Assembly: GCF_030013595.1 (NCBI RefSeq)
Contig: NZ_CP122768.1
DNA length: 64,000 bases
Reading direction: 5' to 3' (one strand)
DNA from: Escherichia coli
GTDB lineage: Bacteria; Pseudomonadota; Gammaproteobacteria; Enterobacterales; Enterobacteriaceae
Positions within the stretch are counted from its first letter, which is position 1. Every line of letters begins with the position of its first letter. This document shows positions 14,985-16,115 of this stretch, piece by piece. Made by a program: the position numbers and the translations under genes. The notes below the pieces were generated by a model. The model had not been told where the DNA came from, did no database searches, and saw nothing but the letters and a program-made list of their open reading frames with translations.

Positions 14985-16115
14985 ATGACCGGACGTAAAA
15001 ACAAATGTGTCAGAAAAAATTGTAACAATCAGGTTTTCTCAGTAAAAATGGCAGTGGAGAAAAGACTGTGCAGAAAACATTATGAGAGGTTTTGTGAGCT
15101 CAAAAAAAGAAGAGAGCAAAATCCTGTTCACAGATTAAATGAAGCATTGCCAAGAAAGATAAAAGGACCAAAAAGTAAGAAAAAATTAGTAAAAGAAAGA
15201 GAAATCATTAACAGCAGAAAAAAACATAAACAGGAGCAGGGACCATCGCTGACTGAACTTAATAAAAAAGTTCGTGAGATACTGAAAACTCCTGCATGGA
15301 GAACGCTGGAAACGAGAATTCGAAGAAACGGAATCACATTTAAGTCAAAAGCAGAGTTAGATGCGCTTTCTGAACTTTATGCAATTTATTCATGGGTTTC
15401 ATATTGCAAACGGGGCGATAATTATTCTGTGTGGTTTTTGAATTGTCCGGATGTAAATATAAACCTTCATGTGTGCGAATGCCGGTCTTCTGAAAGCGAT
15501 TGTTATCTGCCATCTCGTTTTATTATTCTTCCAGCTCCATTAAGGCAAAAAGTAAAAAGAAAATACTCGGCTAATTCGTCTGGGGTACCAGGACATAATG
15601 ATTCAAAAAGTCTTTATAAGACAGTTTTGTCTGTTTGTGGTGGGAAAAGAGAAACCGAAATGTTCTTTTATTCATTGCCAGTAAAGACTAATCATCATCC
15701 TTACTGGATTAAAAGTGGTGTGGTTAAAAGATTCCCTCCTGTTTTTGGTTTGTTGTTTTATGAACAGGAAAGATTAACAGGAGGTGTTTTTCGTTATGTG
15801 TTGATAAGATTTTATAATACTTTTAAAGAGAATTTGTTTTTTGTTGAGATTGTATCGTGCTGTTTTCTTGTTGAGCTTTTTCATGATATTGATTCATTTT
15901 TTATAAATCAACGATTAAGTAAGCTGGAAAGTTTTATAGATAAGTGGAGGGAGGGTAAAGAAATCTGGATAAAAGTATATTTACAACTGATACATACTAT
16001 ATTGGGAATAACTGAAACAGAAAAACTCGTCAATCTATATAATTCATTTTTTACTGATAAAGTGGTTCTCTGGGATGAATCAGTAAAAAAAGTTAAGTGG
16101 ATTTATGAGAAATAG
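14985..16115 (+). CDS. Orphan AT-rich protein with N-terminal Cys/His cluster (376 aa)
   Basis: ORF track; Lys-rich N-terminus with C8, C13, C29, H32, C37; low GC; no recognised family. Confidence 0.5.
   Translation: MTGRKNKCVRKNCNNQVFSVKMAVEKRLCRKHYERFCELKKRREQNPVHRLNEALPRKIKGPKSKKKLVKEREIINSRKKHKQEQGPSLTELNKKVREILKTPAWRTLETRIRRNGITFKSKAELDALSELYAIYSWVSYCKRGDNYSVWFLNCPDVNINLHVCECRSSESDCYLPSRFIILPAPLRQKVKRKYSANSSGVPGHNDSKSLYKTVLSVCGGKRETEMFFYSLPVKTNHHPYWIKSGVVKRFPPVFGLLFYEQERLTGGVFRYVLIRFYNTFKENLFFVEIVSCCFLVELFHDIDSFFINQRLSKLESFIDKWREGKEIWIKVYLQLIHTILGITETEKLVNLYNSFFTDKVVLWDESVKKVKWIYEK

What the first reader, a model, noticed from the sequence alone, without database searches (positions are those of the whole stretch)
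14985..16115. Orphan 376-aa AT-rich gene with a Cys/His cluster between the island GTPase and a repeat array
Strongly AT-rich coding sequence, Lys-rich N-terminus with C8-x4-C13 ... C29-x2-H32-x4-C37 (possible zinc ribbon), and no family I recognise. It occupies the variable slot next to the YfjP-like GTPase, where islands of this type often carry defence cargo.
Basis: inference. Interest (0 to 1): 0.5.

Follow-up and report, generated by a model that had tools for sequence, protein, structure and literature searches.

The report
Hypervariable zinc-finger gene at island hub
This is a real, selected gene for a zinc-finger protein of an undescribed family that always sits at the control hub of a very common enterobacterial genomic island, in three very different swappable versions, and its function is still unknown.

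Summary
The ORF is real: 14985-16115 (+), 376 aa, GC 0.335, with Cys/His at exactly the stated positions. It is not an orphan. It is intact in 458 of 462 E. coli genomes that carry it, has dN/dS 0.14-0.25, and has full-length relatives in Salmonella, Klebsiella, Citrobacter, Atlantibacter and Enterobacter. No Pfam, NCBIfam, PHROG, PADLOC, PDB-sequence or PDB-fold match was found.

The protein has three parts: a conserved N-terminal C-x4-C-x15-C-x2-H finger (C37 is not conserved), a very basic linker, and a fast-evolving, mostly helical body.

In every locus examined it is transcribed divergently from the YfjP-like GTPase operon and heads the AlpA/G2P (excision/replication) side. In E. coli it lies in a sharply bounded 1,651-bp cassette (14877-16527) downstream of a shared promoter region. 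Three classes fill about 95% of 2,510 backbone copies: this one, a 407-aa homolog, and a finger-less homolog paired with a protein that has a ribbon-helix-helix-like C-terminus. Real cargo, such as type I R-M, lies beyond G2P.

So this is an obligate, allelic backbone gene, not swapped-in defence cargo. My best guess (confidence about 0.4) is a nucleic-acid-binding specificity or regulatory factor of the element. A defence role is not excluded.

The parts
14985..16115 (+). Protein-coding gene, 376 aa (identical or near-identical to RefSeq WP_000147748.1, 'hypothetical protein'); a member of an undescribed family restricted to Enterobacteriaceae
   Evidence: ORF; RefSeq annotation; dN/dS 0.14-0.25 among four alleles with no indels; homologs
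14997..15119 (+). N-terminal C-x4-C-x15-C-x2-H finger (residues 5-45), the best-conserved part of the protein
   Evidence: Invariant C8, C13, A23, R27, L28, C29, H32, Y33 in nine finger copies; 51-61% identity across genera against 15-29% for the C-terminus; pLDDT 88-93; duplicated in Salmonella P0033
15120..15269 (+). Strongly basic linker predicted to be disordered (residues 46-95; 16 K/R against 5 D/E)
   Evidence: Charge counts; pLDDT below 50 for residues 55-97
15270..16112 (+). Conserved-core body (residues 96-376): KTPAWR motif, a small alpha/beta part and a C-terminal helical bundle ending in the LYNSFF motif; the fastest-evolving part
14877..16527 (.). Allelic cassette: the 1,651-bp segment replaced as a unit between islands whose flanks are otherwise about 95% identical
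   Evidence: blastn breakpoints at 14876/14877 and 16528 against three other allelic classes; the right-hand breakpoint is also seen in the genome survey
14801..14876 (.). Shared part of the divergent intergenic hub, conserved across allelic classes; contains the palindrome AACCGGAT-N7-ATCCGGTT (14825-14847) and a TAATAT -10-like hexamer (14859-14864)
   Evidence: Sequences and alignment; promoter function is inferred, because the consensus scan found no strong sigma-70 site on the + strand here
16116..16527 (.). Non-coding tail that travels with the gene inside the cassette; function unknown
   Evidence: Conserved among alleles but no better than the CDS in the 80% allele; small ORFs broken in other alleles; no significant RNA fold; no Rfam hit
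13916..14800 (-). YfjP-like GTPase (MMR_HSR1), first gene of the leftward 'moron' operon; the invariable divergent neighbour
   Evidence: about 95% nucleotide identity whichever allelic class is next to it

Best explanation
The gene encodes a nucleic-acid-binding protein that is an obligate but hypervariable backbone component of a tRNA-targeting integrative element of Enterobacteriaceae. That element type has an integrase, AlpA and an HUH/G2P gene at one end, cargo in the middle, and a GTPase-DUF932-ArdB-RadC-CbeA/CbtA operon at the other end. The protein has a conserved CCCH zinc finger and a highly basic linker for binding, and a fast-diverging helical body that provides specificity. It is expressed from a conserved promoter hub, divergently from the GTPase operon and at the head of the AlpA/G2P excision-replication side. 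I propose that it acts as the element's allelic specificity or regulatory factor: a switch or sensor that couples the element's own gene expression, excision or replication to a signal. On this view its three allelic classes in E. coli are alternative specificity types maintained by recombination and diversifying pressure. Shown here: the gene is real and selected, the finger ligands are conserved, the position is fixed, the cassette has sharp boundaries, the alleles are homologous, and the slot is almost always occupied. Inferred: zinc and nucleic-acid binding, a regulatory or sensor role, and the identity of the target.
For: The gene is real and selected: dN/dS is 0.14-0.25 and 458 of 462 copies are full length. 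The binding head shows several consistent features. CCCH is invariant in nine finger copies. Residues 1-95 have 30 K/R against 9 D/E and the whole protein has pI 9.75. The finger is the most conserved domain. It is duplicated in Salmonella. Where the finger is absent, a convergent partner gene appears whose C-terminus matches RepA/CopB-type regulators, which I know as ribbon-helix-helix proteins (E = 7e-5 and 2e-3). The position is fixed at the divergent hub in E. coli, Salmonella, Klebsiella, Citrobacter, Atlantibacter and Enterobacter. The family was never seen in another context, and at least 446 of 458 E. coli copies keep the same flanks. The slot is nearly always occupied: 515 + 1,069 + 813 = 2,397 of 2,510 backbone copies. 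The occupants are homologous. Cargo lies beyond G2P. The protein evolves fast relative to its neighbours: 30% identity against 52-73% between E. coli and Klebsiella. No intrinsic terminator-like site separates it from downstream genes in the window up to 17347, or from AlpA in Klebsiella. The element type is described in PMC12458937, section 11.
Against: No DNA target was identified. The shared 76 bp of the hub (14801-14876) does not co-vary with the allelic class, even though the classes have different binding modules. The downstream 1.1-kb region does not co-vary with class either. So class-specific operators in the flanks are not supported. The TTTTCCGAAC repeat flanking the ORF is not conserved. 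The fold search found no regulator-like or any other informative structural relative. The whole-protein model is only moderate (pLDDT 66). A self-contained cassette that recombines independently of both flanks is also what a defence or conflict module would look like. The RHH assignment for the partner protein is weak in Pfam (E = 0.26).
Confidence: 0.4

Rival explanations
1. A stand-alone anti-phage defence or abortive-infection protein. The finger and basic linker would sense phage nucleic acid or a phage protein, the helical body would be the effector, and the allelic classes would reflect an arms race with phages.
For: The cassette is self-contained and recombines independently of both flanks under a constant promoter. 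The C-terminus diversifies fast. The gene stays intact even where the mobility genes have decayed: G2P is frameshifted in this window, and L007 and L009 are IS-ridden with X intact. Elements of this type are known carriers of defence systems (PMC12458937). From my own knowledge, RnlAB sits next to yfjP in K-12 CP4-57.
Against: No PADLOC model matches any allelic class. No recognisable effector fold or catalytic motif was found. The family was never found outside this one hub, on phages, or more than once on plasmids, unlike typical defence genes. About 95% occupancy by one homologous family is unlike a cargo hotspot. Recognisable cargo sits elsewhere in the element.
Confidence: 0.25
2. A replication or mobilisation accessory of the HUH/G2P rolling-circle initiator, for example an origin-binding or loading factor acting on the conserved 1.1-kb non-coding region upstream of G2P.
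For: It has the same orientation as AlpA and G2P and lies immediately upstream of them in the compact Klebsiella, Citrobacter, Atlantibacter and Enterobacter elements. The partner of the finger-less class resembles plasmid replication-control proteins RepA/CopB and RepC. A conserved non-coding region with short repeats lies between it and G2P in E. coli.
Against: The allelic class does not co-vary with the 1.1-kb region or the G2P gene. The X and 320-aa classes share 91.6% identity there, while two X alleles share only 74.5%. The gene is kept intact where G2P is frameshifted or truncated. The RepA/CopB similarity covers only about 40 residues at the partner's C-terminus.
Confidence: 0.15
3. 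An anti-defence or host-manipulating factor, for example one that counteracts restriction, xenogeneic silencing or a competing element. It would be expressed together with the ArdB/RadC 'moron' genes on entry into a new host.
For: It neighbours an operon with ArdB/KlcA antirestriction and RadC/JAB genes. Fast evolution is typical of counter-defence proteins. The protein is very basic and could bind nucleic acid.
Against: It is transcribed away from that operon. It has no similarity to any known anti-restriction or anti-defence family. No data bear directly on this reading.
Confidence: 0.1
4. A decaying or spurious ORF, or an IS/transposase fragment.
For: It is AT-rich and has a 'hypothetical protein' label everywhere.
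Against: dN/dS is 0.14-0.25 with no indels across alleles. 458 of 462 copies are full length. Full-length orthologs exist at 30% identity. There is no transposase match.
Confidence: 0.01

Closest known systems
Master repressors of mobile elements encoded divergently from the operon they control (SaPI Stl, lambdoid CI immunity regions)
   Same: It sits at a divergent control hub of an integrative element, is almost always present, has a conserved nucleic-acid-binding head with a highly divergent body, and exists as alternative allelic types exchanged by recombination between conserved flanks. The comparison with Stl and CI rests on my own knowledge of those systems.
   Different: The head is a CCCH zinc finger, not a helix-turn-helix, and there is no sequence or fold similarity. 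The shared intergenic DNA does not co-vary with the allele, unlike immunity regions where operators travel with the repressor. Repression and induction are untested.
C2CH / treble-clef zinc fingers (for example THAP-type C-x2-4-C-x35-50-C-x2-H, or the C-x4-C...LC-x2-HY-x-R module I recall from actinobacterial and phage HNH endonucleases)
   Same: It has the same ligand order, Cys-Cys-Cys-His. It also has a knuckle followed by a helix that supplies the last two ligands in the predicted structure. One AFDB relative is labelled 'HNH endonuclease' by an annotation pipeline.
Ogr/Delta zinc-finger transcription activators of P2/P4
   Same: These too have a zinc finger and are encoded on mobile elements of Enterobacteriaceae, and the island type here has been called P4-like (my own knowledge).
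   Different: Ogr/Delta is a roughly 70-80-aa C-x2-C-x22-C-x4-C protein. Here the motif is C-x4-C-x15-C-x2-H on a 376-aa protein, and no Ogr_Delta Pfam hit was found.
Defence cargo next to the GTPase in CP4-57-type islands (for example RnlAB beside yfjP in E. coli K-12)
   Same: It is adjacent to a YfjP-family GTPase in an island of the same general backbone, and the locus is variable between strains.
   Different: The occupants here are homologs of one family present in about 95% of backbone copies. There is no similarity to RnlA/B or to any PADLOC model. The K-12 arrangement is from my own knowledge and was not examined here.
RepA/CopB-type replication-control regulators, which I know as ribbon-helix-helix proteins
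   Same: The partner protein of the finger-less allelic class carries a C-terminal match to these families. This suggests that the family's body works together with a DNA-binding module.
   Different: The match lies in the partner protein of another allele, not in this protein. It covers about 40 residues and is not significant in Pfam.

Membership tests
Zinc-binding C2CH (treble-clef-like) finger | Four metal ligands conserved in all members | tested here: met
   C8, C13, C29 and H32 are invariant in nine finger copies, including the second finger of P0033 and the 407-aa class; C37 is not conserved
Zinc-binding C2CH (treble-clef-like) finger | Knuckle in a beta-hairpin plus the last two ligands at the N-terminus of a helix | tested here: inconclusive
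Zinc-binding C2CH (treble-clef-like) finger | Binds zinc | not testable with these tools
   Needs metal analysis of purified protein
HNH endonuclease | His-Asn-His catalytic beta-beta-alpha-metal core detectable by family profiles | tested here: not met
   No HNH family hit in Pfam or NCBIfam for any of 11 family members; the 'HNH endonuclease' label on one AFDB relative is unsupported
Known anti-phage defence systems (PADLOC-DB 2.0) | Profile match to a component of a described system | tested here: not met
   Zero families for this protein and for six other family members or partners
Known anti-phage defence systems (general behaviour) | Optional cargo found in varied genomic contexts and mobile elements | tested here: not met
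   Always at the GTPase hub in every locus examined; about 95% occupancy; absent from phage genomes and viral contigs; found on 1 of 72,556 plasmids
Element master repressor / immunity-type regulator (Stl- or CI-like) | Encoded divergently from the controlled operon, with alternative alleles between conserved flanks | tested here: met
   Divergent from the GTPase operon with a 184-bp gap (14801-14984); cassette breakpoints at 14877 and 16528
Element master repressor / immunity-type regulator (Stl- or CI-like) | Operator sites that co-vary with the regulator allele | tested here: not met
   The shared 76 bp of the hub is the same for all three classes, and the downstream 1.1 kb does not track the class; sites inside the cassette cannot be excluded
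Element master repressor / immunity-type regulator (Stl- or CI-like) | Represses element genes and is relieved by a specific inducer | not testable with these tools
   Needs genetics or transcriptomics
Ogr/Delta zinc-finger activators | C-x2-C-x22-C-x4-C motif and an Ogr_Delta profile match | tested here: not met
   The motif here is C-x4-C-x15-C-x2-H; no Pfam hit
IS / transposase fragment | Similarity to a transposase family, or a truncated or frameshifted state | tested here: not met
   No Pfam or NCBIfam transposase hit; intact and under purifying selection

The most novel reading that the evidence does not exclude
The family is the master switch or sensor of a very widespread but uncharacterised class of enterobacterial integrative elements. 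In this reading the zinc-finger head anchors it to nucleic acid and the hypervariable body recognises a trigger, such as a helper-phage protein or a competing element. The three allelic classes would then be distinct induction or immunity types. Alternatively, it is a wholly new single-protein conflict system that is hard-wired into the element's backbone rather than carried as cargo.
Probability: 0.25. Interest if true: 0.8.

Novelty: new variant of a known kind. Interest (0 to 1): 0.55.

Why it matters
This backbone is present in about a third of complete E. coli genomes (1,871 of 5,426), often in several copies. It carries resistance, virulence and defence cargo, yet how these elements are controlled and moved is unknown. 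A gene that is always at the divergent hub, is under purifying selection, and still exists as three barely recognisable alleles exchanged at precise breakpoints is the obvious candidate for the element's specificity determinant. Knowing what it binds would make two things directly testable. One is the published suggestion that these islands behave as phage satellites (PMC12458937). The other is the question of why co-resident islands differ. It also gives a name and a domain map to thousands of 'hypothetical protein' entries.

Tried and rejected
1. Family assignment: Pfam, NCBIfam, PHROGs, PADLOC, and PDB sequence searches with a single sequence and with two profiles gave nothing significant.
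4. The recalled similarity to HNH-associated fingers: tblastn of the finger against phage genomes gave only E of 2 or more, so it is not demonstrated.
5. An AlpA remnant downstream of the ORF: the 53-aa ORF 16255-16416 has no similarity to Klebsiella AlpA and is broken by stop codons in other alleles.
6. A structured RNA in the cassette tail: z = -1.4 and -0.3, and no Rfam hit.
7. The operator idea based on TTTTCCGAAC flanking the ORF: it occurs twice in 64 kb against 0.18 expected, but the 5' copy is mutated in two alleles, so I dropped it.
8. My interim impression that the tail is better conserved than the CDS held only among close alleles. In the 80% allele the tail is 81% identical against 86.5% for the CDS, so I withdrew it.
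9. Co-variation of the allele with the GTPase, the hub or the downstream region: none was found.
The viral-contig scan with A2 found no relatives.
11. Literature searches by accession numbers and by gene names found nothing on this protein.

Full report
**Observation**

The ORF at 14985-16115 (+) exists as described: an ATG start, 376 codons, and an AGGAG 8 nt upstream. Its GC content is 0.335 (GC3 0.27), against 0.53 for the neighbouring GTPase gene and 0.50 for the window. The other five reading frames over the same span contain 17-40 stops, so the open frame is not a chance product of composition. Cys and His fall at exactly the stated positions, C8, C13, C29, H32 and C37. The first 100 residues hold 20 Lys and 12 Arg.

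**A real, selected gene, not an orphan**

RefSeq annotates it as the hypothetical protein WP_000147748.1. The gene is found in 462 of 5,426 complete E. coli genomes. It is full length in 458 of them, at many chromosomal sites, at 95.8-100% nucleotide identity. One of those genomes is O157:H7. Four alleles up to 4% apart have no indels and give dN/dS of 0.14-0.25. The neighbouring GTPase gives 0.07-0.13 in the informative pairs.

Two database-wide protein searches found only a small family. One of them was an exhaustive HMMER pass over 1.84 billion representatives. The family comprises E. coli members at 98% and 80% identity, Salmonella at 36-38%, and Klebsiella, Citrobacter and Atlantibacter at about 30%. 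Further members are a 400-aa metagenomic sequence, a 465-aa Salmonella form, and a 421-aa Enterobacter form found with profiles. Of about 100,000 species representatives, only three carry a close relative. The family is absent from 50,697 phage genomes and 2.9 million viral contigs, and it is on a single plasmid.

**No described family matches**

**Anatomy**

- *Finger.* An alignment of nine finger copies from seven clades leaves C8, C13, A23, R27, L28, C29, H32 and Y33 invariant, while C37 is lost in two copies. The set includes the second finger of the Salmonella 465-aa form and the finger of the 407-aa E. coli class. The ligand set is therefore C-x4-C-x15-C-x2-H.
- *Basic region.* Residues 1-95 carry 30 K/R against 9 D/E, residues 55-97 are predicted to be disordered, and the whole protein has pI 9.75.
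- *Conservation gradient.* The finger is the best-conserved part, 51-61% identical across genera and 100% in the 80% allele. The C-terminal helical body is the fastest-evolving part, at 15-29%.
- *Superfamily invariants.* Across the whole superfamily only W105, Y135, P183, R263 and E288 are invariant. No catalytic signature is evident.

**Context: a fixed position at a divergent hub**

In E. coli the gene is always transcribed away from the YfjP-like GTPase, across a 184-bp gap (14801-14984). That GTPase opens the leftward operon, which runs GTPase, HTH regulator, DUF905, DUF932, antirestriction, RadC/JAB, DUF987, CbeA/CbtA. To the right, after 1.2-1.5 kb without annotated genes, comes an 'inovirus Gp2 / YagK-YfjJ' gene, which is HUH-like, followed by AlpA.

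The same arrangement holds in the other genera. It is seen in Klebsiella pneumoniae and in Salmonella. It is also seen in K. oxytoca, Atlantibacter and Citrobacter and in Enterobacter hormaechei. In the compact versions the order is GTPase (leftward), then rightward X, AlpA and G2P. In Enterobacter a type I R-M system follows G2P. So recognisable cargo lies beyond the X-AlpA-G2P module, not in the X position.

A 2025 preprint describes this element type. It has an integrase, an excisionase and an HUH rolling-circle endonuclease at one end, cargo in the middle, and a RadC/ArdB/CbtA-CbeA 'moron' operon at the far end. The authors suggest a satellite-like lifestyle (PMC12458937, section 11). The preprint does not mention this gene.

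**The slot is variable, but its occupants are alleles of one family**

About 1,100 further E. coli genomes share the DNA from 16528 to 17620 but lack this ORF. I compared islands directly. They are about 95% identical through the GTPase gene and the first 76 bp of the intergenic region. Homology is lost at 14877 and returns at 16528. So a 1,651-bp cassette is exchanged as a unit.

The alternatives are:
- a 407-aa 'hypothetical protein';
- a 320- or 310-aa protein with a convergent second gene of 268-284 aa.

The 407-aa protein is a full-length homolog with its own finger and the C-terminal YNS-F motif (hhalign 99.5%, E = 2e-22, 18% identity). The 320-aa protein aligns to residues 94-300 and lacks the finger (87%, E = 4e-6). 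Its convergent partner is unrelated to X. The partner's C-terminus matches RepA/CopB and RepC, which I know as ribbon-helix-helix replication-control regulators (E = 7e-5 and 2e-3). Pfam supports this only weakly (E = 0.26).

Counts in the complete genomes:

| Feature | Places |
|---|---|
| GTPase backbone | 2,510 (in 1,871 genomes) |
| This variant | 515 |
| 407-aa class | 1,069 |
| Two-gene class | 813 |
| Sum of the three classes | 2,397 (about 95% of backbone copies) |

Between E. coli and Klebsiella the neighbouring proteins are 52-73% identical, while this one is 30% identical.

**What this means**

Three properties together are not the behaviour of optional cargo:
- the slot is almost always occupied;
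- the family is never seen outside this one hub;
- its position is fixed at the head of the excision/replication side.

They point to a backbone function. Four further features point to a nucleic-acid-binding protein whose body supplies a rapidly changing specificity. The head is a conserved, basic zinc finger. That finger is duplicated in one clade. In the finger-less class a separate protein with an RHH-like C-terminus appears instead. And the helical body evolves very fast.

My best explanation (confidence about 0.4) is an element-encoded regulatory or specificity factor at the control hub. It would work like the variable master regulators of other mobile elements.

The main evidence against this is that I found no allele-specific DNA target. 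The shared hub contains a palindrome, AACCGGAT-N7-ATCCGGTT, and a TAATAT hexamer just upstream of the breakpoint. This hub is the same for all classes. The downstream 1.1-kb region does not track the class either. A self-contained cassette that recombines freely is also what a conflict or defence module would look like.

I therefore keep defence as the main rival (0.25). A replication accessory (0.15) and an anti-defence role (0.10) follow. A spurious ORF or IS fragment is excluded.

**Things that led nowhere**

- The cassette tail (16116-16527) has no conserved ORF, no significant RNA fold and no Rfam match.
- The TTTTCCGAAC repeat flanking the ORF is not conserved.
- My recollection that the finger resembles the C-x4-C...LC-x2-HY-x-R module of HNH endonucleases could not be substantiated.

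**Verdict**

As a protein family it is undescribed. As a kind of thing, a variable DNA-binding factor at the switch region of an integrative element, it has precedents. I therefore rate it a new variant of a known kind and give it interest 0.55.

It would rate higher if the sensor/immunity-type reading or a new hard-wired conflict function proved true (probability about 0.25).

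Noticed in passing
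window 16528-17620: About 1.1 kb without annotated genes lies just upstream of the G2P/HUH gene. It is G/T-rich on the + strand and is conserved at 73-94% identity in 1,593 of 5,426 E. coli genomes, whichever allelic class precedes it. A weak 12-13-nt tandem repeat (TTTTACTAAGYAT, about 4.5 copies) sits at 16663-16716. Candidate roles are an origin, a regulatory region or a long leader for the HUH gene, and none was tested.
   Followed up: partly
window 17629-18359 (near 17842): The 'inovirus Gp2 family' (HUH-like) gene is frameshifted in this window by a 1-bp deletion in an A-run (A6 against A7), relative to strains 2009C-3133 and E24377A, where it is an intact 243-aa gene. This is either a real pseudogene or a homopolymer sequencing error.
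   Followed up: yes
window 14801-14876: The part of the divergent intergenic region shared by all allelic classes holds a perfect 8-bp inverted repeat, AACCGGAT-N7-ATCCGGTT (14825-14847). It also holds a TAATAT hexamer (14859-14864) about 12 bp before the cassette breakpoint. Klebsiella and Salmonella hubs keep a similar GTAATATAG and a CCGG-containing repeat. This is a likely operator for a backbone regulator, such as the adjacent HTH protein at 13033-13713.
   Followed up: partly
L010:4310-5164 (-) and L012:4639-5448 (-): The finger-less allelic class is accompanied by a convergent gene of 268-284 aa. Its last 40 or so residues match RepA/CopB and RepC, which I know as ribbon-helix-helix regulators. 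Its N-terminal 220 residues match nothing.
   Followed up: partly
P0033 / L014:8001-9398 (Salmonella): A 465-aa family member carries two tandem copies of the C-x4-C-x15-C-x2-H finger, which shows that the finger is an independent, duplicable module.
   Followed up: yes
window 18687-19565 and 21327-21767: Just beyond the G2P gene the island carries a stand-alone 'restriction endonuclease' (292 aa) and, after IS remnants, an H-NS-family paralog (146 aa). The H-NS paralog is notable next to several very AT-rich genes.
   Followed up: no
window 23975-26474: There is a second YagK/YfjJ (G2P-like) gene, an AlpA-like HTH gene and a UCP030791-like gene. These are the best matches to the Klebsiella AlpA and G2P genes. 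So the window's island looks like a composite of two related elements, or it carries a duplicated module.
   Followed up: partly
window about 31000-41600 and 41675-56247: Annotation was transferred from a 99.97-99.99% identical record. The first segment holds RhuM, a type I R-M system (hsdR/S/M), a RelB/DinJ antitoxin and IS1. The second holds a Tn21-like segment with the mer operon and a class 1 integron (dfrA1-aadA1-qacEdelta1-sul1), which is inverted relative to strain 2009C-3133. The window therefore comes from a related but different strain.
   Followed up: partly
window 16116-16527: The non-coding tail of the cassette is co-inherited with the gene and is 95-97% identical among close alleles. 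It has no conserved ORF, RNA fold or Rfam match, and its role is unexplained.
   Followed up: yes
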